A DNA stretch of 12,888 bases from Methanobacteriaceae archaeon (GTDB lineage: Archaea; Methanobacteriota; Methanobacteria; Methanobacteriales; Methanobacteriaceae). Shown piece by piece: positions 2,598 to 12,888 of the stretch. The position numbers and the translations under genes are program-made. The notes beneath the pieces were generated by a model. That model worked only from the letters and a program-made list of their open reading frames with translations, was not told where the DNA came from and did not search any database. The DNA is taken from assembly GCA_003558085.1 (NCBI GenBank), contig PWMT01000051.1, positions 1-12,888 of the forward strand, written 5' to 3'. Position 1 is the first letter of the stretch; every line of letters begins with the position of its first letter.

Positions 2598-2783
2598 GCA
2601 GCTTAATAATCAATTATCTAGAAAAAAATAGAGTATACCCTTTTTAAGGTAAATACTGAATTTAATTTTTCACTGCAATATTTTTAAAAATTTATTTGTA
2701 TTTTTTTTATGTAGATTTTAAAATTTTATATTATGTGGTACCTTGATTTTTTATAATAATTTTTTAAAAATTTTTATTACTAA

Positions 2784-2800
2784 ACCAAAAGTTTATATAA
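2784..2800 (+). promoter_or_regulatory. Candidate BRE + TATA box (distal promoter of the pdxT-glt operon)
   Basis: ACCAAAAG followed by TTTATATA (2792-2799) matches the euryarchaeal BRE/TATA layout. Confidence 0.55.
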
Positions 2801-2895
2801 CTGTTCATTCATATAGCCACATACACAGTAAATTTTGAACATTGTATATTAGCATATATTAAAAGAAGTGATTATTGAAAAAAAATTTACTTTTT

Positions 2896-2911
2896 CGGAA
2901 AGGATCTTCCG
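2896..2911. promoter_or_regulatory. NrpR nitrogen-repressor operator
   Basis: CGGAA-AGGATC-TTCCG exactly matches the GGAA-N6-TTCC operator consensus of methanogen NrpR. It is GC-rich within an extremely AT-rich spacer and lies upstream of glutamate synthase genes. Confidence 0.85.
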
Positions 2912-2916
2912 GTAGA

Positions 2917-2926
2917 TTTATATATA
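2917..2926 (+). promoter_or_regulatory. Candidate TATA box (proximal promoter), adjacent to the operator
   Basis: TTTATATATA begins 6 nt after the end of the operator and about 70 nt before the pdxT ATG. Confidence 0.5.
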
Positions 2927-2995
2927 AATTTATTTAAAAAGAATCATTACTGGTTAAATTAAAAATTGAATAACTACAAAATTCAAGGATAACAT

Positions 2996-3574
2996 ATGCT
3001 AACTATAGGTATTTTAGATTTGCAAGGAGATGTAAGTGAACATTTTGCACTAACCTCCCGAGCTTTAAATAAAATTGATAATAACTCAACTGTTATCACC
3101 GTTAAAAATGAGCATGAAGCTTCTTTTTGTGACGGGATAATCATATCTGGAGGAGAAAGTACTGTTATAGGCAAGTTATTAGAGAAAACAGGAATCAAAA
3201 AGGTAATAATATCTGAAAATATACCTGTTTTTGGTACTTGTGCAGGTATGGTTCTTTTAGCTTCAGAAACTGATCATGATCAACCTTTACTAAATTTAAT
3301 AGACATGAAAGTTAAAAGAAATGCTTTTGGAAGGCAAAAAGAGTCATTTGAAGAAGAAATTGAAGTTTTAGAAGAAAAATTTACAGGAATATTTATAAGA
3401 GCACCTGTAGTTGTACAGGTCGGTGAAGAAGTAGCTGTATTATCCATTTTAAATGATAAAATAATTGCTGTAAAACAAGGAATGCACATGGCAACTTCTT
3501 TTCATCCAGAACTTACTGAAAATACCAGATTACATGAATACTTTATTAAGGAGGTATTGAAGTGTGTGGAATAG
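2996..3574 (+). CDS. pdxT: Pyridoxal 5'-phosphate synthase glutaminase subunit
   Basis: SNO/PdxT motifs IGILDLQG, GGEST, FGTCAG (catalytic Cys), RNAFGRQKESFE, FIRAP and FHPEL (His-Glu). Confidence 0.95.
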   Translation: MLTIGILDLQGDVSEHFALTSRALNKIDNNSTVITVKNEHEASFCDGIIISGGESTVIGKLLEKTGIKKVIISENIPVFGTCAGMVLLASETDHDQPLLNLIDMKVKRNAFGRQKESFEEEIEVLEEKFTGIFIRAPVVVQVGEEVAVLSILNDKIIAVKQGMHMATSFHPELTENTRLHEYFIKEVLKCVE

Positions 3575-4479
3575 CGGGAGTCGTATATAAAGATAAAAAA
3601 CTCCACCCTGTAGGAAGCGACATGACTAAGATGCTTGATGCTTTACAACATCGGGGGCCAGATTCCGCTGGCTTTTCTATATATGGTGGGCTGGGCTTAG
3701 AAGAGAATGAATATCTTTTGAATATAGAAATTAAAGAAAGGCCAGGTATATTAGAAACTGTTAAAGAAATAATAAGAGTTGTTAGTCCTATTAAAGAAGA
3801 TGAAATCATTCCCTCTGTGGAAGACTACATAATATATCGTTGTACAATTTCTTTAAAATCATTTTCACAATTAAAGCCACTAATTCTGGACATTGATAAG
3901 ATTGAAGATGTAATAGTTTTAAATGGAAGTCATTCTTTTGAAATGATTAAAGATATAGGTTACGTCATGGATATAGCAGAAAGATATGATACCTGGTCAA
4001 AAAAAGGAACCCATGCTATAGGACATACTCGATTTTCAACTGAAAGTATTGTTGATCGTTATCACGCACATCCTTTCCAAAGTTATATCGTCCCCGACAT
4101 CACTGTAGTGCATAATGGACAGATAACCAACTATTGGAATATAAGAGACCCTTTAGAGAGAAAAGGCCATATATTTGAAACCAACAATGATACCGAATGT
4201 ATTGTTCACTACATAGCAGATAAATTGTCCCATGATTATTCCTTAGAAGAAGCATTAGAACAATCTGTAAAAGATATGGATGGACCCTATGCATACGTGG
4301 TGGGAACTCCTAATGGTGTGGGAATAGCTAAAGATCAGCTAGGATTAAGAGCAGGAGTTATGGTAGAAAATGATGATGTTTTTGCTATTGCCTCTGAAGA
4401 AGTTGCACTACGAGAAGTCATAGATACCACTTATGTAGAACAAATAGCACCAGGCGATGTCAGGGTCTATGAGATATAA
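3562..4479 (+). CDS. Class II (Ntn) glutamine amidotransferase, stand-alone glutamate synthase GltB1 subunit
   Basis: N-terminal MCGIAG nucleophile; QHRGPDSAG, GHTRFST, HAHPF, VHNGQITN and NDTE motifs. GTG start with GGAGGT SD at 3550-3555; overlaps the pdxT end by 13 nt. Confidence 0.92.
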   Translation: MCGIAGVVYKDKKLHPVGSDMTKMLDALQHRGPDSAGFSIYGGLGLEENEYLLNIEIKERPGILETVKEIIRVVSPIKEDEIIPSVEDYIIYRCTISLKSFSQLKPLILDIDKIEDVIVLNGSHSFEMIKDIGYVMDIAERYDTWSKKGTHAIGHTRFSTESIVDRYHAHPFQSYIVPDITVVHNGQITNYWNIRDPLERKGHIFETNNDTECIVHYIADKLSHDYSLEEALEQSVKDMDGPYAYVVGTPNGVGIAKDQLGLRAGVMVENDDVFAIASEEVALREVIDTTYVEQIAPGDVRVYEI

Positions 4480-4512
4480 TATTATATTAAAAAACTAATT
4501 ATGGTGATTAGC

Positions 4513-5202
4513 ATGAGGCAAGTGGAAATTGATGCTGAAGCCAAAAATCCTAGGGAAATAAACCGTGAATTAAAGACTCTGGCTAAGGAATATGATCGAA
4601 TTATCTTAAAAAATCCTAATGCCAAGCATTACTTGGCAGCAGGTCTTACCAGTCCAGTTGAACTGGTGATTGAAGGTTCAGCCGGTTATTTCGTTGGAAC
4701 CATGATCGACCAACCATTTATTAAAGTTAAGGGTAATGTAGGCTGGTTTGCAGGGGATAATATGACTCAAGGAAAATTAATAATTGAAGGTTCAGCAGGA
4801 GACGGAGCAGGACAAGGGATATATGGCGGTACAGTGGTGGTTAAAAATGATGCTGGATCTAGAACCGGAGAAATAATGAAACATGGTACAGTTATAGTCG
4901 GTGGAAATTCTGGTTTTATGAGCGGTATTTTTATGATGGGGGGACCAATAATAGTCCTAGGAGATATAGGAGAAGATGCAGGGGAATCCATTATCAGAGG
5001 GACTATTTATGTTCTGGGAGATATTAAAAGCCTGGGTAAAAATGCCCAGACTTTAGAAATTAATGAAGCAGATATAACAGATTTGAAAGAAATCCTCTCC
5101 ACCTATGGATTCCATTTAGAAGATGATCAATATAATCAATTTAAAAAAATAGTTCCAAGAAGTAAAAGACCATTCTATGGTCCTGAATCGGAGGAAGGAT
5201 GA
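4513..5202 (+). CDS. Glutamate synthase GltB3 subunit (GXGXG beta-helix, FwdC/FmdC-like)
   Basis: Repeated G.AG..G..M..G.I.I.G units. GGTGA SD at 4503-4507 favours ATG 4513. Operon context supports a GOGAT role rather than FwdC. Confidence 0.9.
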   Translation: MRQVEIDAEAKNPREINRELKTLAKEYDRIILKNPNAKHYLAAGLTSPVELVIEGSAGYFVGTMIDQPFIKVKGNVGWFAGDNMTQGKLIIEGSAGDGAGQGIYGGTVVVKNDAGSRTGEIMKHGTVIVGGNSGFMSGIFMMGGPIIVLGDIGEDAGESIIRGTIYVLGDIKSLGKNAQTLEINEADITDLKEILSTYGFHLEDDQYNQFKKIVPRSKRPFYGPESEEG

Positions 5203-6299
5203 TGAATAATAATTCTATTCAGAAAAAGGATACAGAAAAAATAGCCATGGTGGGTACACCCTGCCAAATAACTGCCTCCACTCTCATGACCGATTATGCA
5301 GATTATACTGGTAATAATCCGATGGAACTAAAAATAGGTCTTTTCTGTATGGAAAATTTTTCCTATAATTACCTGAAAGAACTCTTAAAAGAATATGAAA
5401 TTAATTTGAAAGATGTGGTGGAATGCCGCATTGAAAAAGGATATATGTGGTTTCATTTAACTGAAAATAAGACATTTAAAATTCCATTAGAGGATGTTAA
5501 AAGTTGTATTCGCAAAAGCTGTAAAATATGTATGGATTTTACTTCCGAACATTCAGATATTTCGGTAGGATCAGTAGGATCACCAGAAGGCTGGTCTACA
5601 GTTATAATCCGCACAGGAAAAGGTCTTAATTTAGTGGAAAATGCCAAAAAAAATAAATACATTAAAACTATGCCCATTACAGATCAAGGTTTAAAATTAA
5701 TGCATAACTTGGCTCTTGAAAAGAAATCTGAAAATATAAAAGAAATTAAAAAAAGAGAAAATATAGCTAGACCTGTACTCTATTGGAGAGTTATGCCTCC
5801 AGAAGAATATTTAGAAGAAGTTAAAACTAGTCAATTTAAAGATTTAAAAGGTGATGTAATAGATATAGGTGGATGTGTTCTTTGTGGTGCGTGTTTACTA
5901 TCCTGTCCAGAAAATATTATCCAAATAAAAGATAGGAAACCTGAAATTAGTGGAGAATGTCCCCCAGAATGCAATGCCTGTTATGTGGCCTGTCCCCGCA
6001 GTTACGTACCTGAAAATATATCCAGCCGAGATATGGAAAAATCACCTTTTGGCGATTATATTAAAATAATCTCGGCTAAAGCATCTATGTTCCATGGACA
6101 AGATGGGGGAGTGGTCACTGCTCTATTAAGTTATGCTTTAGCAGATAATCTGGTGGACAAAGTATTAGTGGTAGATAAAAGCACGGTTAATCCCTGGAAA
6201 CCAGAGCCTAAACTTACCAGAAATTTAGAAGATGTAATAAAAGCATCAGGGACCAAATATGCTGCATGTCCTATATTTAAACCTATGAAAAATGAATAG
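5199..6299 (+). CDS. Coenzyme F420 hydrogenase/dehydrogenase beta-subunit (FrhB/FpoF/Fsr-N-like) protein with a 2x[4Fe-4S] domain, circularly permuted
   Basis: FrhB C-domain motifs VGTPCQ, IGLFCMENF, CKICMDF and SDISVGSVGSPEGWSTVIIRT; ferredoxin motifs CVLCGACLLSCP and CPPECNACYVACP; FrhB N-domain motifs QDGGVVTALL and ASGTKY. ATGA overlap with the previous stop (start 5199 or 5202). Confidence 0.9.
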   Translation: MMNNNSIQKKDTEKIAMVGTPCQITASTLMTDYADYTGNNPMELKIGLFCMENFSYNYLKELLKEYEINLKDVVECRIEKGYMWFHLTENKTFKIPLEDVKSCIRKSCKICMDFTSEHSDISVGSVGSPEGWSTVIIRTGKGLNLVENAKKNKYIKTMPITDQGLKLMHNLALEKKSENIKEIKKRENIARPVLYWRVMPPEEYLEEVKTSQFKDLKGDVIDIGGCVLCGACLLSCPENIIQIKDRKPEISGECPPECNACYVACPRSYVPENISSRDMEKSPFGDYIKIISAKASMFHGQDGGVVTALLSYALADNLVDKVLVVDKSTVNPWKPEPKLTRNLEDVIKASGTKYAACPIFKPMKNE

Positions 6300-6309
6300 G
6301 AGGGTGTAT

Positions 6310-7812
6310 ATGCCTTTCAAAGTAGAGAGAAGCTCAGAAATTTGTAAGAGGAACTTTGATCGTCCTGGTTGTTGCTGGTACTTATGTGATAACCGAGATG
6401 AAAGTCAATGTAAATACTGTTTCTCTTGTTATAATAATTGTCCTCATGATGTTTACGAAATTGTGGGAGGGGAACCATATCCACTAAAACATGAAAATTG
6501 TGTCGGATGTCGCATATGTGAAGAAATGTGTCCTAACGATGCAATAGAAGTAAATGCAGTACCAGAAGACCGGAGGAACGTATGGTCCTTTTCTGATCTA
6601 CTGGAAATTCAGAGAAAATCAAATGAAGGTTCCTATAAGGTAAGAGGTTGTGGGGCCATAAGAGTAATACCCACTTTTGATGATCTAGTTATTATGCCGG
6701 CCCAAGTATCCCGACCACCAATAGATAAATATAGGGAACCCTGTAATACTCAGGTAGTACTGGGTGATCGTTTCGCTGAAAATCCATTAATATTGGATAC
6801 TCCAATTATGATAGCGGCAATGTCATTTGGTGCTTTAAGTAAAGAAGCCAAAATAGCACTGGCAATGGGATCCACTTTAGCTGGAATAGCTACTAATACC
6901 GGAGAAGGTGGAATGTTACCTGATGAACGTAAATATGCTTCTAAATTAATAGCACAATATGCATCTGGCCGGTTTGGAGTCTCTGCTGATTATTTAAATA
7001 ATTCAGATGCCATTGAAATAAAAATTGGTCAAGGAGCCAAGTCAGGTATGGGAGGGCATCTGCTGGGTGAAAAGGTTACAGCAGAAGTAGCTAAAATTAG
7101 AATGATACCTGAAGGAACTGATGCCTTAAGCCCTGCTCGCCATATGGATATTGTAGGCCCGGAAGATCTAAGTATGAAAATTTCTCAATTAAGAGAAATA
7201 ACCGACTGGAAAGTACCCATTATGGTTAAGTTTACTTCTGGTAGAGTTAGAGATGATGTTAAAATTGCAGCTAAAGCTGGTGCAGACATCATCGTAGTAG
7301 ATGGTATGCAGGGAGGAACAGGAGCCGGACCTGACATAGTCACAGAACATTCTGGTGTCCCCACCATCGCTGCCATTGTAGAAGCTGATGAAGCATTAAA
7401 AGAGATTGATTTAAGAAAAGAAGTTAGTCTAATTGGTGGTGGGGGAATAAGAAATGGTGCTGATATAGCTAAAGCTATGGCACTAGGTGCTGATGCAGCC
7501 TATATTGCTACTTCTGCCCTGGTTTCCATTGGATGTAGGGTATGTCAAAAATGTTATGCGGGAACCTGTAGAAAAGGTATTGCCACTCAAGATCCCCAGC
7601 TTCGTAGAAGATTGGATTACTTGGAGGCTGGTAAAAAGGTGGCCCGCTATATTGAAGCTATGACCGAAGAAGTATGTATGCTGACCCAACAGGCTGGAAA
7701 TACTGATGTGAGAAACCTTGAAAAAGAAGATCTCAGATCCTTAACCATTGAAGCTTCTGCTTTAACTGGAGTTAAAATGGCTGGGATGGAAAGTCCAGTT
7801 CTCTATAAATAA
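6310..7812 (+). CDS. gltB: Glutamate synthase GltB2 FMN-binding subunit with N-terminal ferredoxin domain
   Basis: MSFGALS, NTGEGG, QYASGRFGV, EIKIGQGAKSGMGGHL, DGMQGGTGA, GGGIRNGAD and the C-terminal Fe-S motif CRVCQKCYAGTC. Two N-terminal CxxCxxCxxxCP motifs. The AGGAGGGTG SD favours ATG 6310 over 6292. Confidence 0.95.
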   Translation: MPFKVERSSEICKRNFDRPGCCWYLCDNRDESQCKYCFSCYNNCPHDVYEIVGGEPYPLKHENCVGCRICEEMCPNDAIEVNAVPEDRRNVWSFSDLLEIQRKSNEGSYKVRGCGAIRVIPTFDDLVIMPAQVSRPPIDKYREPCNTQVVLGDRFAENPLILDTPIMIAAMSFGALSKEAKIALAMGSTLAGIATNTGEGGMLPDERKYASKLIAQYASGRFGVSADYLNNSDAIEIKIGQGAKSGMGGHLLGEKVTAEVAKIRMIPEGTDALSPARHMDIVGPEDLSMKISQLREITDWKVPIMVKFTSGRVRDDVKIAAKAGADIIVVDGMQGGTGAGPDIVTEHSGVPTIAAIVEADEALKEIDLRKEVSLIGGGGIRNGADIAKAMALGADAAYIATSALVSIGCRVCQKCYAGTCRKGIATQDPQLRRRLDYLEAGKKVARYIEAMTEEVCMLTQQAGNTDVRNLEKEDLRSLTIEASALTGVKMAGMESPVLYK

Positions 7813-7857
7813 ATTATTTTTTCTTTTTTTTCTTTTTATCTTTAACTTTTTTTTCTT
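7813..7857 (+). terminator. Oligo-T terminator region of the glt operon
   Basis: Runs of T6, T8, T5 and T8 immediately follow the gltB TAA. Confidence 0.6.
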
Positions 7858-8086
7858 CCACTGACTTATTATCATCTAATTCTATTTCATTATCTTCATT
7901 TAGAAAAGTAAATCCAGATGAAACAACAATTTCATTAAAAGGATCTAATTCATCAAAAACATGGCCCATAAAATCTTGGATATAGACTAGTTTACCCCCA
8001 CATTCACATATATTGAGTTTATCATCTCCCTTGGAAGAAGAATCTTGTTGGAGGTAAATTTTTCCACATTTTAGACATTTTTGCAT
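7814..8086 (-). CDS. Small zinc-ribbon protein with acidic middle and poly-Lys tail
   Basis: CLKCGKIY-x15-CECGGKL gives four Cys in two knuckles. ATG at 8086 (alternative start TTG 8095). Confidence 0.65.
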   Translation of the reverse strand: MQKCLKCGKIYLQQDSSSKGDDKLNICECGGKLVYIQDFMGHVFDELDPFNEIVVSSGFTFLNEDNEIELDDNKSVEEKKVKDKKKKKKK

Positions 8087-8194
8087 AACAATCAACGGTT
8101 TATATTATTGGTTTTTTTATAACCCAAAATATCCTAGATGTAAATAACTAATATATTTCAGGAAATAATGGTTTCCTGGAGAATATATATTATG

Positions 8195-10485: not shown

Positions 10486-10652
10486 GTTGATCTATACCTA
10501 TTTGTTAATTATATATTTATCATATGCTTAAAAAAAACTATTAAAACTTAAGACTTAGGGAAATATCCAATAAAAATAATTATCTGGTAATCCCTAAATA
10601 ATCATAAAGCGTTCATATCAATAGTAATGAATAAAAAAATCAGGTGAATTAT

Positions 10653-11372
10653 ATGGCAGCTGATAAAGAAAAAATGAAAATAAAGATCCTGGAAAATGGT
10701 CCTTATCTGGTGCAGGGTAACATCCCCCTCTATGAACAAAGATTGATTACTGATGATGCAGGCCACACCATTAAATTAAAAGATATGGGTGAATACCCAT
10801 CCCAGGAGACTTACATCCTCTGTCGTTGTGGTTCATCTGAAAATAAACCTTACTGTGATGGCACTCATAATAAAATCGATTTTGATGGAACAGAAACTGC
10901 CAGTAAAAAATCATATATGGAAAAAGCAGATAGATTTGAAGCAAATGATTTGCTATTGACTGATGCTTATGAGTTTTGTGATCATTCACGATTTTGTTTA
11001 AGAGCTGGAGGGATAAGAAAGCTAATGGAAAATTCAGAGAATCCAGAGAACAGGGAAATAGCCATCGAGGAAGCTACTCTCTGTCCTTCTGGAAGACTAG
11101 TATTGTGGGATAAAAAAACAGGCCTACCCTTTGAAAAAAAATTTGAACCATCCATTGTAATGATTCATGACCCCCAAAAAAAATGTGAAGGACCTATATG
11201 GGTAAGGGGAGGTATTCCCATTGAATCTGCAGATAGTACTATGTATGAAACCCGCAATCGTGTAACCTTATGTCAATGTGGAAAATCTGAAAATAAGCCC
11301 TATTGTGATGGCAGCCATTGGATGAATGCTGAAGAAAAATTAAAATTCAGGAAAAAATGGGATCTTGATTAA
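10653..11372 (+). CDS. CDGSH iron-sulfur protein: two CDGSH [2Fe-2S] motifs flanking a divergent mono-cluster ferredoxin-like (DUF1271/Fer4_19-like) domain
   Basis: CRCGSSENKPYCDGTH and CQCGKSENKPYCDGSH, each preceded by a GPY/GPI strand; central CDHSRFC...CPSGRL. AGGTGA SD at 10642-10647 favours ATG 10653. Confidence 0.92.
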   Translation: MAADKEKMKIKILENGPYLVQGNIPLYEQRLITDDAGHTIKLKDMGEYPSQETYILCRCGSSENKPYCDGTHNKIDFDGTETASKKSYMEKADRFEANDLLLTDAYEFCDHSRFCLRAGGIRKLMENSENPENREIAIEEATLCPSGRLVLWDKKTGLPFEKKFEPSIVMIHDPQKKCEGPIWVRGGIPIESADSTMYETRNRVTLCQCGKSENKPYCDGSHWMNAEEKLKFRKKWDLD

Positions 11373-12476: not shown

Positions 12477-12888
12477 ATGAAAGAAAAATCTATATTATTG
12501 ACTATAATAATTTTTATAGCTTTAATAGGTAGTATCGTTTTTGCATTTGATTTTTTATCTAACGAGGATGATAATCCACTTATATTAAATAACACTACTT
12601 CAAATAACAGTACTTCAACTAATAATTCTAATAATAATTCTAATAACATTCGTTCAAACAATGAATCCCCTGTTTCAAACTTGCAAGAAACTAGCAGTAC
12701 TAACTCCGGTAGTTCATCAAGACCCCAAGTTAATAATAAATGTCCAAACTGTAGCTCTGGAAAGATATATTGCCAATCCTGTAATGGCAGAGGAAGGATT
12801 TGGGATGAAAATGGTCAATTGTTAAGGTGTTCTAATTGCGGAGGTACTGGTGGATCCCATTGTAATAGATGCAATGGAAAAGGATACC
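12477..12888 (+). CDS. Membrane-anchored or secreted protein with an N/S/T-rich linker and a DnaJ-type CxxCxGxG zinc finger; 3'-truncated by the window edge
   Basis: Not in the ORF track. Manual translation: MKEKSILLTIIIFIALIGSIVFAFDFLSNEDDNPLILNNTTSNNSTSTNNSNNNSNN...KCPNCSSGKIYCQSCNGRGRIWDENGQLLRCSNCGGTGGSHCNRCNGKGY. SD-like GAGTTGAT lies upstream. Confidence 0.88.
   Translation, partial: MKEKSILLTIIIFIALIGSIVFAFDFLSNEDDNPLILNNTTSNNSTSTNNSNNNSNNIRSNNESPVSNLQETSSTNSGSSSRPQVNNKCPNCSSGKIYCQSCNGRGRIWDENGQLLRCSNCGGTGGSHCNRCNGKGY
12588..12644 (+). repeat. Short in-frame tandem repeats in the linker
   Basis: AATAACA(C/G)TACTTCA x2 (12588-12617) and AATAATTCTAAT x2 (12621-12644). Confidence 0.8.

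What the first reader, a model, noticed from the sequence alone, without database searches (positions are those of the whole stretch)
2896..7812. NrpR-controlled, four-subunit glutamate synthase apparently wired to coenzyme F420 instead of NADPH
Seen: GltB1, GltB3 and GltB2 are separate genes. An FrhB-like gene sits between GltB3 and GltB2, overlapping the first (ATGA) and 10 nt from the second, and there is no gltD in the window. Known: bacterial GOGAT receives electrons from NADPH via GltD, while FrhB-family FAD/[4Fe-4S] domains oxidise F420H2 in Frh, Fpo and Fsr. F420-dependent glutamate synthase has been proposed for methanogens from gene context, but I am not aware of biochemical proof. 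Inference: electrons flow F420H2 -> FAD -> Fe-S relay (FrhB cluster, its 2x[4Fe-4S], the GltB2 ferredoxin) -> FMN. From memory the order resembles M. thermautotrophicus MTH187-MTH194, so it may be conserved across the family rather than unique; this needs verification.
Basis: partly seen in the sequence, partly recalled or inferred. Interest (0 to 1): 0.7.

Follow-up and report, generated by a model that had tools for sequence, protein, structure and literature searches.

The report
Putative F420-linked archaeal glutamate synthase operon
This is the split glutamate synthase gene cluster typical of Methanobacteriaceae methanogens, in which a protein of the coenzyme-F420-reading family replaces the bacterial NADPH-reading subunit; the idea has been in print since 2011 and has still not been tested by an enzyme assay.

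Summary
On the + strand lie gltB1 (3562-4479), gltB3 (4501-5202), an FrhB-like gene (5199-6299, ATGA overlap) and gltB2 (ATG 6310, 10 nt after the stop). There is no GltD in the window or in the 95.9%-complete genome. A GGAA-N6-TTCC palindrome sits at 2897-2910.

- The operator precedes pdxT (2996-3574), which overlaps gltB1 by 13 nt, so the operon has five genes.
- The FrhB-like protein is circularly permuted: FrhB residues 83-281, then an FrhG-type 2x[4Fe-4S] insert, then FrhB residues 3-80.
- Almost all of this is already published. Kaster 2011 calls MTH193 [quoted passage not shown]. Susanti & Mukhopadhyay 2012 name it FGltS(II). Mills 2013 notes the permutation. Kelly 2014 reports GGAAN6TTCC upstream of pdxT.

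The cluster is conserved: 71 of 80 related loci hold all four genes, and 7 of the other 9 are cut or broken. The operator lies at a fixed distance from the TATA box. FrhB-like and GltB1 are present or missing together across 301 genomes. Papers from 2024 and July 2026 still call the enzyme "putative".

Verdict: an ordinary ortholog of a known, unproven system. The scan met the Methanococcus version before (e1-2599869). F420H2 as donor is about 60-65% likely.

The parts
2896..2911 (.). NrpR-type operator, CGGAA-N6-TTCCG (GGAA 2897-2900, TTCC 2907-2910)
   Evidence: Read and the only match in the window. It matches the consensus GGAAN6TTCC quoted in PMC2723118 and PMC4335013. Of 67 related promoters, 42 match exactly and 15 have one mismatch. 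Among 55 distinct sequences there are 36 different spacers. Binding by NrpR is inferred.
2917..2924 (+). TATA box TTTATATA, 6 nt downstream of the operator; the predicted transcription start is about 2947-2952 (inferred)
   Evidence: The consensus TCGGAA-N6-TTCCGGTAAnTTTATAT has fixed spacing in 56 sequences, the window plus 55 loci. The role as TATA box and the start position rest on general knowledge of archaeal promoters, not on a test.
2996..3574 (+). pdxT, glutaminase subunit of PLP synthase; first gene of the operon
   Evidence: Pfam SNO 182.8 bits; TIGR03800 202 bits against a cut-off of 105.55. It is the only strong SNO gene in the genome. pdxS lies elsewhere, on contig C66. It overlaps the gltB1 start by 13 nt. 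pdxT is found at this place in 69 of 80 related loci.
3562..4479 (+). gltB1, class II (Ntn) glutamine amidotransferase subunit
   Evidence: GTG start followed by Cys (MCGIAG), with AAGGAGGT 6 nt upstream. GATase_7 and GATase_6 score about 58 bits; GATase_2 is just under its cut-off. Relatives are 65-90% identical and syntenic.
4501..5202 (+). gltB3, GXGXG beta-helix subunit
   Evidence: PF01493 100.1 bits. There is a 21-nt gap after gltB1, and the stop overlaps the next start as ATGA.
5199..6299 (+). Circularly permuted FrhB-like flavo-iron-sulfur subunit (FGltS(II)-alpha, MTH193-type). Residues 1-195 (5199-5783) match FrhB 83-281. Residues 215-279 (5841-6035) are an FrhG-type 2x[4Fe-4S] insert. 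Residues 284-358 (6048-6272) match FrhB 3-80.
   Evidence: Pfam domain order is C, then Fer4, then N. BLASTP against the genome's own FrhB and FrhG gives E 6e-35, 5e-14 and 7e-12. The model has pLDDT 79.2; the best PDB matches are FrhB 9r52_B, 8riu_B and Fsr 7npa. Invariant cysteines are C22, C50, C108, C111 plus eight in the insert.
6310..7812 (+). gltB2, FMN/synthase subunit with an N-terminal Cys-rich ferredoxin domain (an in-frame ATG at 6292 is the less likely start)
   Evidence: PF01645 452.3 bits; Fer4 dicluster at residues 36-86 of the longer frame. A GGAGGGTG ribosome-binding site precedes ATG 6310. C409, C415 and C420 align with the three [3Fe-4S] cysteines of bacterial GltB, and an extra C412 is invariant.
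7813..7859 (+). T-rich tract after gltB2, the likely end of the transcript (inferred)
   Evidence: Read: runs of 6 to 8 T directly after the TAA stop. Not tested.

Best explanation
The window carries the Methanobacteriaceae form of archaeal glutamate synthase as a five-gene operon: pdxT, gltB1, gltB3, frhB-like, gltB2.

**Proposed mechanism**
- GltB1 splits glutamine with its N-terminal cysteine.
- The ammonia passes to GltB2, where FMN reduces the 2-iminoglutarate made from 2-oxoglutarate. GltB3 is the structural beta-helix.
- Bacteria use the NADPH-reading GltD here. This enzyme has instead a circularly permuted FrhB-family protein, which takes a hydride from F420H2 onto FAD.
- Electrons then pass one at a time through its own [4Fe-4S] cluster, its inserted FrhG-type 2x[4Fe-4S] domain, the 2x[4Fe-4S] domain at the N-terminus of GltB2, and the cluster next to FMN. 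That last cluster has four cysteines here and so is probably a [4Fe-4S].

**Proposed regulation**
A GGAA-N6-TTCC operator touches the upstream edge of the TATA box. This puts the operon under the nitrogen repressor NrpR, together with glnA and amtB.

**Shown here:** the gene content, the permutation, the cofactor-site landmarks, the conservation, the co-occurrence, and the operator with its position.

**Inferred:** F420H2 as the donor (about 0.6-0.65), the four-protein complex, NrpR binding, and a [4Fe-4S] in place of the [3Fe-4S].

That this is the ortholog of the published 'putative F420-dependent glutamate synthase' (MTH193-type, FGltS(II)) I hold at about 0.9.
For: **Domains.** All GOGAT core parts are present as separate genes.

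**No GltD.** The best genome-wide score is 24.7 bits against a cut-off of 447.7.

**Only complete set.** This is the only one of three Glu_synthase paralogs in the genome that sits with an amidotransferase.

**Permutation.**
- Residues 1-195 match FrhB 83-281 (34% identity, E 6e-35).
- Residues 284-358 match FrhB 3-80 (38%, E 5e-14).
- Residues 215-279 match FrhG 204-268 (34%, E 7e-12).

**FrhB landmarks.** Those named in passages of Mills 2013 are kept in the alignment:
- Cys104/134/192/195 correspond to C22/C50/C108/C111.
- Lys75-Tyr76 corresponds to K353-Y354.
- Ser209-Val210 corresponds to S125-V126.
- IGKGK is only partly kept, as IEKGY.
- Most of these are invariant in 19 and in 23 relatives.

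**Fold.** The best solved matches are all F420-reacting subunits: FrhB 9r52_B (E 1.4e-13, rmsd 2.2 over 182 columns), 8riu_B, 8rja_E, and Fsr 7npa.

**Synteny.**
- 71 of 80 best loci (of 547 relatives) hold gltB1-gltB3-frhB-like-gltB2.
- Six others are cut by contig ends and one has a fragmented gltB2.
- The same order is seen in the other three families sampled (L115, L116, L117).

**Tight coupling.** There is an ATGA overlap in the window. By my start-codon picks, the gap between the frhB-like stop and the gltB2 start is at most 16 nt in 21 of 22 relatives.

**Phyletic profile.**
- FrhB-like is found in 265 of 301 genomes and GltB1 in 268 of 301.
- 19 of the 20 listed genomes without FrhB-like also lack GltB1.
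- 0 of 7 near-complete FrhB-less genomes have GltB1.

**Fusion.** One of the 120 listed longer homologs (P0226, 800 aa) joins FrhB domains to a Glu_synthase domain.

**Complex prediction, FrhB-like with GltB2.**
- Verdict: 'weak support'. Score 0.51 (runs 0.51, 0.44, 0.51); best of 3 controls 0.00.
- The mark was reached by 58 of 80 solved complexes and 2 of 110 mismatched pairs.
- At 0.60 or under it was reached by only 7 of those 80 solved complexes, and by both mismatches that passed.
- The runs agree in at least 50% of contacts, and the partner's pLDDT is at least 80.
- My own alignments were used, so the counts hold only roughly.

**Regulation.**
- nrpR (562 aa, two NRD domains) lies beside glnA.
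- Like operators lie 76 nt upstream of amtB and about 60 nt upstream of glnA.
- The operator is conserved next to the TATA box.

**Literature.** Searches give the same reading.
Against: - No assay exists. Kaster 2011 writes 'remains to be proven', and the 2024 and 2026 papers still write 'putative'.
- I could not read the two older biochemical papers (Raemakers-Franken 1991, cited by Kaster; Kenealy 1982). They are not held.
- FrhB-family membership does not guarantee F420 use. The ferredoxin-dependent chlorophyll reductase HCAR (5dqr) is among the fold and sequence matches.
- GltB2 has its own ferredoxin domain and could take electrons from a ferredoxin directly.
- In the genome of L099 (handle G001) and on L101, the cluster pdxT-gltB1-gltB3-gltB2 has no FrhB-like gene between gltB3 and gltB2. 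The only FrhB-like gene there is an orphan elsewhere.
- That orphan groups with the FrhB-like gene of a glutaminase-less paralogous cluster (SH-aLRT 99, but with a long-branch warning).
- One lysine of the IGKGK loop that Mills 2013 proposed for the F420 phosphate is not kept.
- The complex prediction is only weak.
- The operator in the window alone is within chance (44 of 200 shuffles). 10 of 67 related promoters lack it even allowing one mismatch.
- In Methanothermococcus, GOGAT transcripts did not change during diazotrophy (PMC9765008, passage). Nitrogen control of GOGAT is therefore not general in methanogens.
Confidence: 0.62

Rival explanations
1. The enzyme is a ferredoxin-dependent glutamate synthase. 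Reduced ferredoxin (plentiful in hydrogenotrophic methanogens through Eha/Ehb or Mvh-Hdr) feeds the iron-sulfur relay. The FrhB-like protein would be a flavin/iron-sulfur adaptor that does not use F420, as in the ferredoxin-dependent HCAR, or a side branch that balances F420 against ferredoxin.
For: - GltB2 has an N-terminal 2x[4Fe-4S] domain plus four more invariant cysteines: C12, C21, C22, C26.
- Some relatives have the GOGAT cluster with no FrhB-like gene inside it.
- The genome's own paralog on contig C35 is fused to a polyferredoxin instead of being paired with an FrhB-like gene.
- HCAR (5dqr) is among the structural and sequence relatives.
Against: - The F420-side loop (S125-V126), the FAD loop (K353-Y354) and all four cluster cysteines are kept and invariant.
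- The nine best solved sequence relatives are FrhB-family chains of enzymes named for F420.
- FrhB-like and GltB1 are gained and lost together.
- The genomes with the FrhB-less cluster still keep an FrhB-like gene elsewhere.
Confidence: 0.22
2. The FrhB-like, GltB3 and GltB2 proteins form a redox module whose real substrate is not glutamine/2-oxoglutarate, or which runs in the oxidative direction (glutamate to 2-oxoglutarate, reducing F420). Its position next to gltB1 would then be historical.
For: - Glutaminase-less gltB3'-frhB'-gltB2' clusters exist in a genome of the same genus (L111).
- A GXGXG plus GltB2-like pair without an amidotransferase exists in this genome (C35).
- Earlier notes of this scan describe similar glutaminase-less modules in other phyla.
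Against: - Here the amidotransferase with its Cys1 is in the same tightly packed operon, and it is the only such set in the genome.
- No canonical glutamate dehydrogenase was found. The single PF00208 hit is an 88-aa contig-end fragment that begins at its own ATG. GS-GOGAT is therefore the likely assimilation route.
- The operon shares its operator type with glnA and amtB.
Confidence: 0.06
3. The palindrome upstream of pdxT is not an NrpR site, or is one that controls only pdxT. Glutamate synthase would then be made constitutively.
For: - One match in the window is within chance.
- The genome holds 41 GGAA-N6-TTCC sites, about twice my rough estimate of 20 from base composition. Most lie at places I did not examine.
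- 10 of 67 relatives lack the site.
- GOGAT was not induced during diazotrophy in a Methanococcales species.
Against: - The half-sites are kept while the spacer varies: 36 spacers in 55 distinct sequences, at a fixed 6 nt from the TATA box.
- Apart from one high-G+C contig that looks foreign (C31), the extended form CGGAA-N6-TTCCG occurs in this genome only here and upstream of amtB.
- pdxT overlaps gltB1 by 13 nt, and the gaps further down are 21 nt, an overlap, and 10 nt. That leaves no room for a separate promoter.
Confidence: 0.12

Closest known systems
Putative F420-dependent glutamate synthase of Methanothermobacter (MTH193 / MTBMA_c06440, 'subunit 4'; FGltS(II) of Susanti & Mukhopadhyay 2012)
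   Same: - A split gltB1/gltB3/gltB2 set with an FrhB homolog as the fourth subunit, and no GltD.
- The same circular permutation. The Fig. [quoted passage not shown]
- The same gene order in Methanothermobacter-labelled locus L052 (FrhB-like 62% identical, GltB2 87%), and likewise in L116 of family code f3.
   Different: Nothing of substance; this is an ortholog in another, uncultured member of the family. The closest record is L021, with 78% identity for the FrhB-like protein and 91% for GltB2. Susanti 2012 describes the subunit as an 'FdhB homolog'. Here it reads better as FrhB plus an FrhG-type ferredoxin domain, permuted. The supplementary figures of that paper, which list the ORFs, could not be opened.
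FGltS(I), the Methanococcales-type putative F420-dependent glutamate synthase (Fsr-N-like subunit)
   Same: The same proposed chemistry, and the same idea of an FrhB-family F420H2 dehydrogenase feeding a split GltB (passages of PMC3448663; earlier scan note e1-2599869).
   Different: According to the paper, the F420 subunit there has the unpermuted order ferredoxin-FrhB and belongs to another clade (with FpoF/FqoF). I did not fetch one here.
Fsr, F420-dependent sulfite reductase (PDB 7NP8, 7NPA)
   Same: It works alike: an FrhB-type F420H2-oxidising FAD/[4Fe-4S] module, a 2x[4Fe-4S] ferredoxin relay, then a catalytic module with its own clusters. Fsr is among the best sequence and fold matches of the FrhB-like protein (E 6.5e-42; E 6.1e-11).
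   Different: Fsr is a single chain with the ferredoxin domain first and a siroheme sulfite reductase as acceptor. Here the module is permuted, is a separate subunit, and faces an FMN enzyme.
Bacterial NADPH-glutamate synthase GltBD (PDB 1EA0, 2VDC, 6S6S, 7MFM) and ferredoxin-GltS (1LLW)
   Same: The FMN/synthase domain is homologous (E 2.7e-50 to 7mfm_G). The three [3Fe-4S] cysteines align with C409, C415 and C420. The Ntn amidotransferase and the GXGXG domain are also present.
   Different: The domains are separate proteins. No central domain passes its cut-off (PF04898 21.2 bits against 22.8). There is no GltD. An extra N-terminal ferredoxin domain and a fourth cysteine (C412) at the cluster site are present.
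NrpR regulon of methanogens (nif, glnA, amtB-glnK; operator GGAAN6TTCC)
   Same: The same operator consensus. nrpR lies next to glnA, as Kaster 2011 describes for Methanothermobacter. An operator upstream of pdxT was listed for Methanobacterium formicicum BRM9 (PMC4335013).
   Different: - None of the passages I read says that pdxT heads the glutamate synthase operon, so GOGAT is not listed as an NrpR target there.
- Here the operator lies directly upstream of the TATA box. At this genome's glnA and amtB promoters it lies downstream of the TATA box.

Membership tests
Glutamate synthase (GOGAT) catalytic core | Ntn (class II) glutamine amidotransferase with the catalytic Cys directly after the initiator Met | tested here: met
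   The protein starts MCGIAG from GTG 3562. GATase_7 scores 57.8 bits and GATase_6 57.6 bits. The GltS-specific model GATase_2 scores only 19.7 against a cut-off of 19.9.
Glutamate synthase (GOGAT) catalytic core | FMN-binding synthase domain (PF01645) | tested here: met
   452.3 bits against a cut-off of 20.4. E 2.7e-50 to the GltB large chain 7mfm_G.
Glutamate synthase (GOGAT) catalytic core | Three cysteines of the [3Fe-4S] cluster next to FMN | tested here: met
   C409, C415 and C420 align with the Cys-x5-Cys-x4-Cys of 2vdc_A and 7mfm_G. They are invariant in 23 sequences, as is a fourth Cys, C412. That these three are the cluster ligands in the bacterial enzyme is recalled.
Glutamate synthase (GOGAT) catalytic core | C-terminal GXGXG beta-helix domain | tested here: met
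   PF01493 100.1 bits against a cut-off of 32.5, as a separate protein of 233 aa.
Bacterial-type NADPH-GOGAT (GltBD) | GltD small subunit (NADPH, FAD, two [4Fe-4S]) | tested here: not met
   The best TIGR01317 score in the whole genome is 24.7 bits against a cut-off of 447.7. The genome is 95.87% complete.
Bacterial-type NADPH-GOGAT (GltBD) | Central domain of the large subunit (PF04898) | tested here: not met
   Only 21.2 bits against a cut-off of 22.8, and on the FMN domain.
FrhB family of F420-reactive flavo-iron-sulfur proteins | FrhB_FdhB_N and FrhB_FdhB_C domains | tested here: met
   Both are over their cut-offs (76.6 and 161.6 bits), but in the order C ... N. This is confirmed against the genome's own FrhB.
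FrhB family of F420-reactive flavo-iron-sulfur proteins | Four cysteines of the [4Fe-4S] cluster (FrhB Cys104, 134, 192, 195) | tested here: met
   They align with C22, C50, C108 and C111 (residue list). They are invariant in alignments A1 and A3.
FrhB family of F420-reactive flavo-iron-sulfur proteins | FAD loop (Lys75-Tyr76) and F420-side loop (Ser209-Val210); IGKGK turn | tested here: met
   K353-Y354 and S125-V126 are kept. K353, Y354 and S125 are invariant in 23 sequences; V126 is at least 90% conserved among 19. The IGKGK turn reads IEKGY, so one of its two lysines is lost.
FrhB family of F420-reactive flavo-iron-sulfur proteins | Oxidation or reduction of coenzyme F420 | not testable with these tools
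   This needs an enzyme assay. The family also has members that do not use F420 (HCAR, 5dqr).
FGltS(II) / MTH193-type putative F420-dependent glutamate synthase | FrhB homolog encoded inside a split gltB cluster, permuted, in Methanobacteriales | tested here: met
   Gene order in the window. The same order is found in 71 of 80 loci, among them Methanothermobacter-labelled L052, and also in L116 from the wider sample. The permutation matches the description in the Fig. 9 legend of Mills 2013. The MTH193 sequence itself was not fetched.
NrpR regulon | GGAA-N6-TTCC inverted repeat in the promoter, and nrpR in the genome | tested here: met
   Operator at 2897-2910. It is conserved next to the TATA box. 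nrpR has two NRD domains.
NrpR regulon | Binding by NrpR that 2-oxoglutarate relieves; induction under nitrogen limitation | not testable with these tools
   No RNA run holding the stretch was listed. This needs a gel-shift or transcript data.

The most novel reading that the evidence does not exclude
In Methanobacteriaceae, NrpR would control glutamate synthase itself, unlike what is reported for Methanococcales. It would do so through one five-gene transcript that also carries the PLP-synthase glutaminase pdxT, and from an unusual position: the operator ends 6 nt before the TATA box, where TFB should bind. At glnA and amtB in the same genome the operator lies downstream of the TATA box. The enzyme it controls would be a true F420H2:glutamine-2-oxoglutarate amidotransferase, with a circularly permuted F420 module and a [4Fe-4S] where bacteria have a [3Fe-4S].
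Probability: 0.4. Interest if true: 0.45.

Novelty: already known. Interest (0 to 1): 0.3.

Why it matters
How methanogens without GltD reduce their glutamate synthase is a real open question. Glutamate synthase is the entry point of nearly all cell nitrogen, and F420 as donor would tie nitrogen assimilation directly to the methanogenic hydride pool.

This window does not make the question newly testable. The same cluster sits in cultured, mass-growable Methanothermobacter and Methanobacterium strains, and the hypothesis has been in print since 2011-2013.

- a family-wide count of the synteny;
- the joint presence and absence of the FrhB-like gene and gltB1;
- natural variants with the FrhB-like gene outside the cluster;
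- the fixed operator-TATA geometry, which links the published 'operator upstream of pdxT' to the glutamate synthase genes;
- a fourth invariant cysteine at the cluster next to FMN.

Tried and rejected
- **RNA evidence.** No RNA holder was listed for window 2700-8000. The one run shown holds next to none of its words.
- **Rfam.** No family reached its gathering score anywhere in the window.
- **Earlier notes of this scan on this genome.** None.
- **Older biochemistry.** Kenealy 1982 was not held under either its DOI or its PMC id. Raemakers-Franken 1991 is known to me only as reference 126 of Kaster 2011.
- **Glutamate dehydrogenase as a second route.** The single PF00208 hit (35.4 bits, end of contig C21) is an 88-aa fragment that starts at its own ATG with a Rossmann motif. 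It looks to me like a homoserine dehydrogenase start (recalled), not a GDH.
- **The orphan FrhB-like genes of L099/L100 as translocated copies of the cluster gene.** I considered this. The tree puts them instead with the FrhB-like gene of a glutaminase-less paralogous cluster (L111). The branches are long and the tool warns of attraction, so this is left open.
- **The C35 GltB2 paralog as the ortholog of the L111 gltB2'.** They are only 57% identical, so not shown.
- **A solved structure of this enzyme.** None was found by sequence in the PDB copy.
- (a search term with brackets; an untranslatable stretch) were corrected.

Full report
**What is in the sequence**

The window is a whole contig (C11) of a 1.86-Mb assembly in 175 contigs, 95.87% complete and 35% G+C. 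By similarity it belongs to the Methanobacteriaceae. The nearest public record is an uncultured Methanobacteriaceae genome (L021), with protein identities of 74-91% across the cluster.

On the + strand, after a malate/lactate dehydrogenase-like gene (1620-2597) and a 398-nt spacer, lie five tightly packed genes:
- pdxT, 2996-3574: SNO family; TIGR03800, 202 bits.
- gltB1, 3562-4479: GTG start followed by Cys; class II amidotransferase.
- gltB3, 4501-5202: GXGXG.
- An FrhB-like gene, 5199-6299.
- gltB2, 6310-7812: Glu_synthase, 452 bits, with an N-terminal 4Fe-4S dicluster domain.

The junctions, read, are:
- a 13-nt overlap between pdxT and gltB1;
- a 21-nt gap between gltB1 and gltB3;
- an ATGA overlap between gltB3 and the FrhB-like gene;
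- 10 nt (GAGGGTGTAT) between the FrhB-like stop and ATG 6310;
- a T-rich tract after the gltB2 stop.

An in-frame ATG at 6292 gives the longer frame that the ORF listing prints. The ribosome-binding site and the relatives favour 6310.

First, the palindrome at 2896-2911 precedes pdxT, not gltB1, so the transcription unit has five genes. This pdxT is the genome's only strong SNO-family gene. Its partner pdxS lies on another contig.

Second, the FrhB-like protein is circularly permuted. I compared it with the FrhB and FrhG of the same genome:
- residues 1-195 match FrhB 83-281 (34%, E 6e-35);
- residues 284-358 match FrhB 3-80 (38%, E 5e-14);
- residues 215-279 match the C-terminal 2x[4Fe-4S] domain of FrhG (34%, E 7e-12).

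Pfam shows the same order: C domain, Fer4, N domain.

**Is it a complete glutamate synthase, and what is missing?**

The amidotransferase, the FMN/synthase domain and the GXGXG domain are all present.
- The three cysteines that align with the [3Fe-4S] motif of bacterial GltB are C409, C415 and C420. A fourth, C412, is invariant in 23 sequences. I infer a [4Fe-4S] there.
- No GltD exists in the genome (best 24.7 bits against a cut-off of 447.7).
- No central domain passes its cut-off.
- The genome has two more Glu_synthase paralogs, neither with an amidotransferase beside it. One, on C35, is a GXGXG protein followed by a 620-aa polyferredoxin-GltB2. The other, on C78, is a DUF2769-GltB2 next to a rubredoxin-TPP enzyme.
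- No canonical glutamate dehydrogenase was found.

The window's cluster is therefore the only complete GOGAT, and probably the main route to glutamate.

**Does the FrhB-like protein look able to use F420?**

Passages of Mills et al. 2013 (PMC3591093) name the FrhB residues around the Fe-S cluster (Cys104, 134, 192, 195), the FAD (loop Lys75-Tyr76) and F420 (Ser209-Val210, and the turn 163-IGKGK).

In the alignment these correspond to C22/C50/C108/C111, K353-Y354 and S125-V126. The turn reads I78-E-K-G-Y82. All but one lysine are kept, and most are invariant in relatives.

A model built on 23 sequences (pLDDT 79.2, pTM 0.82) finds as best solved matches:
- FrhB (9r52_B, E 1.4e-13; 4ci0_C);
- the F420-reducing CO dehydrogenase and formylmethanofuran dehydrogenase components of an ethanotroph (8riu_B, 8rja_E);
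- Fsr (7npa, 7np8).

The ferredoxin-dependent HCAR (5dqr) is a more distant match. Family membership alone therefore does not prove F420 use. No structure of an archaeal split GOGAT was found by sequence.

**Conservation**

A scan of one genome per species found 547 relatives of the FrhB-like protein. The best 80 loci were kept.
- All four genes, in the order gltB1-gltB3-frhB-like-gltB2, are present in 71 of the 80.
- Six more are cut by contig ends (L029, L060, L068, L076, L082, L090). One has gltB2 in pieces (L098).
- Two Methanobrevibacter-labelled loci (L099, L100) have the FrhB-like gene alone.
- pdxT stands in front of gltB1 in 69 of the 80. The same small overlap is seen in 67 of those 69.
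- Of the other eleven, four lack pdxT at that place, four are cut, one has pdxT fragmented, and two are the FrhB-only loci.
- The same order holds in loci from the other three family codes of a 301-genome sample (L115, L116, L117).

In that sample the FrhB-like protein matches collinearly at E <= 1e-50 in 265 of 301 genomes, and GltB1 in 268 of 301. The per-genus tallies are nearly the same.
- Of the 20 listed genomes without the FrhB-like gene, 19 are also listed without GltB1.
- Seven of them, in three genus codes and 98-99% complete, gave 0 of 7 for GltB1.
- The mismatches I could see were G107 (FrhB-like only), and G201, G246, G266 and G282 (GltB1 only, all at most 87% complete).

Related genomes are not independent. 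Still, joint loss in several genera speaks for a shared function.

**Evidence that cuts the other way**
- In the genome of L099 (handle G001) and on L101, the cluster reads pdxT-gltB1-gltB3-gltB2, with about 140 nt where the FrhB-like gene would be.
- The FrhB-like genes of such genomes are orphans. In a quick tree of 93 rows they group with the FrhB-like gene of a second, glutaminase-less cluster (gltB3'-frhB'-gltB2', L111) found in a genome of the window's own genus. Support is SH-aLRT 99, but the branches are long and the tool warns of attraction.
- So either that paralog serves GOGAT in trans, or GltB2 can be fed another way, for example by ferredoxin through its own N-terminal domain.

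**Do the FrhB-like protein and GltB2 bind?**
- In relatives the two genes are nearly always within 16 nt of each other (21 of 22 by my start picks).
- One of the 120 listed longer homologs is a single 800-aa chain with FrhB and Glu_synthase domains (P0226).
- The complex prediction gave 'weak support'. The score was 0.51 and the best of three controls 0.00. The mark was reached by 58 of 80 solved complexes and 2 of 110 mismatched pairs. At 0.60 or under it was reached by only 7 of those 80 solved complexes, and by both mismatches that passed. The runs agreed in at least 50% of contacts and the partner's pLDDT was at least 80. My own alignments were used, so the counts hold only roughly.

**Regulation**

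GGAA-N6-TTCC is the NrpR operator consensus quoted in PMC2723118 and PMC4335013.
- In the window the single match is within chance (44 of 200 shuffles).
- The genome has 41 such sites, against about 20 that I estimate from base composition.
- The genome encodes NrpR (562 aa, two NRD domains) directly after glnA.
- Contigs C167 and C175 overlap by 121 nt. Joined, they show a divergent amtB-glnK / glnA-nrpR region with one operator 76 nt upstream of amtB and one about 60 nt upstream of glnA. Both lie downstream of a TTTATATA box.

Upstream of pdxT in relatives, 42 of 67 promoters have an exact operator, 15 have one mismatch (mostly GGCA) and 10 are worse. The window plus 55 loci give 55 distinct sequences with 36 different spacers. 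Their consensus is TCGGAA-N6-TTCCGGTAAnTTTATAT.

The half-sites and their distance to the TATA box are thus under selection while the spacer is free. That is the pattern expected of a protein-binding site. Here the site touches the upstream side of the TATA box, where TFB binds (established knowledge). I therefore infer repression by blocking assembly of the initiation complex. This geometry differs from that at glnA and amtB in the same genome.

**Comparison with the literature**
- Kaster et al. [quoted passage not shown]
- Susanti & Mukhopadhyay 2012 (PMC3448663, passages) name two putative forms, FGltS(I) and FGltS(II). The second is the Methanothermobacter type.
- Mills et al. 2013 (Fig. 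9 legend) already note the permutation.
- Chadwick et al. 2022 (PMC9012536, passages) add a possible third group in ANME archaea.
- Kelly et al. 2014 (PMC4335013, passage) report the operator upstream of pdxT in M. formicicum BRM9, without saying that pdxT heads the GOGAT genes.
- A 2024 preprint and a July 2026 paper still write 'putative'.
- A Methanococcus transposon study found the three gltB-domain genes essential and no small-subunit homolog.

[quoted passage not shown] They found no assay. The library lacks most subscription journals, and supplements were closed.

**Verdict**

The cluster is an ordinary ortholog of a known system.

New here are counts and details:
- the family-wide synteny;
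- the joint presence and absence of the FrhB-like gene and gltB1;
- variants lacking the FrhB-like gene in the cluster;
- the operator-TATA geometry that ties the NrpR site to glutamate synthase;
- the fourth cysteine at the FMN-proximal cluster.

Noticed in passing
L016:2749-5290 (own genome, contig C35): A second glutamate-synthase-like pair with no amidotransferase: a 222-aa GXGXG protein followed by a 620-aa protein. In the latter, about 240 residues of polyferredoxin precede a Glu_synthase domain that is 57% identical to GltB2. An ArsR/TrmB-type regulator lies divergently upstream.
   Followed up: partly
L111:6263-9530 (genome G008, same genus as the window): A glutaminase-less cluster gltB3'-frhB'-gltB2' with its own permuted FrhB-like gene, 50% identical to the window's. 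It was not found in the window's own assembly, where only two FrhB_C matches exist.
   Followed up: partly
L017:62-3370 (own genome, contig C78): A third Glu_synthase paralog (499 aa, with an N-terminal DUF2769 domain), directly downstream of a rubredoxin-fused thiamine-pyrophosphate enzyme (585 aa).
   Followed up: no
L109:4932-8972 and L101:2-2249: Methanobrevibacter-type GOGAT clusters pdxT-gltB1-gltB3-gltB2 with no FrhB-like gene between gltB3 and gltB2. The FrhB-like gene of these genomes stands alone elsewhere (L099, L100).
   Followed up: partly
L078:7001-9247: The FrhB-like and gltB2 frames run on without a stop, which looks like a fusion. The same record has broken pdxT, mdh and gltB2 frames, so an assembly error in a homopolymer run is the likelier cause.
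   Followed up: partly
own genome, contigs C167:3200-3834 and C175: The two contigs overlap by 121 nt. Joined, they give a divergent glnK-amtB / glnA-nrpR region with two GGAA-N6-TTCC operators, each downstream of a TTTATATA box.
   Followed up: yes
own genome, contig C31 (2905 bases): A short contig of high G+C, unlike the rest of the assembly, which looks foreign (contamination). It carries one of the three CGGAA-N6-TTCCG sites in the assembly.
   Followed up: no
L025: The record title says Methanomicrobiales. Its whole mdh-pdxT-GOGAT locus, however, is syntenic with the Methanobacteriaceae loci and nests among them in the tree, so the label may be wrong.
   Followed up: no
window 7814-8095 (- strand): A 93-aa ORF between gltB2 and the MFS transporter gene has no Pfam match. 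Read from the DNA, it contains Cys pairs that look like a small zinc ribbon.
   Followed up: no
window 10644-11372: A 242-aa protein with two CDGSH iron-sulfur domains and a divergent 4Fe-4S mono-cluster domain (Fer4_19).
   Followed up: no
window 12477-12887: An ORF that runs off the contig end. It has a signal-anchor-like start, a long Asn/Ser-rich low-complexity stretch, and then repeated CxxC motifs.
   Followed up: no
window 6310-6400 (GltB2 residues 12-26): Four more invariant cysteines (C12, C21, C22, C26) lie ahead of the two ferredoxin motifs of GltB2. They could hold a further cluster or a metal site.
   Followed up: partly
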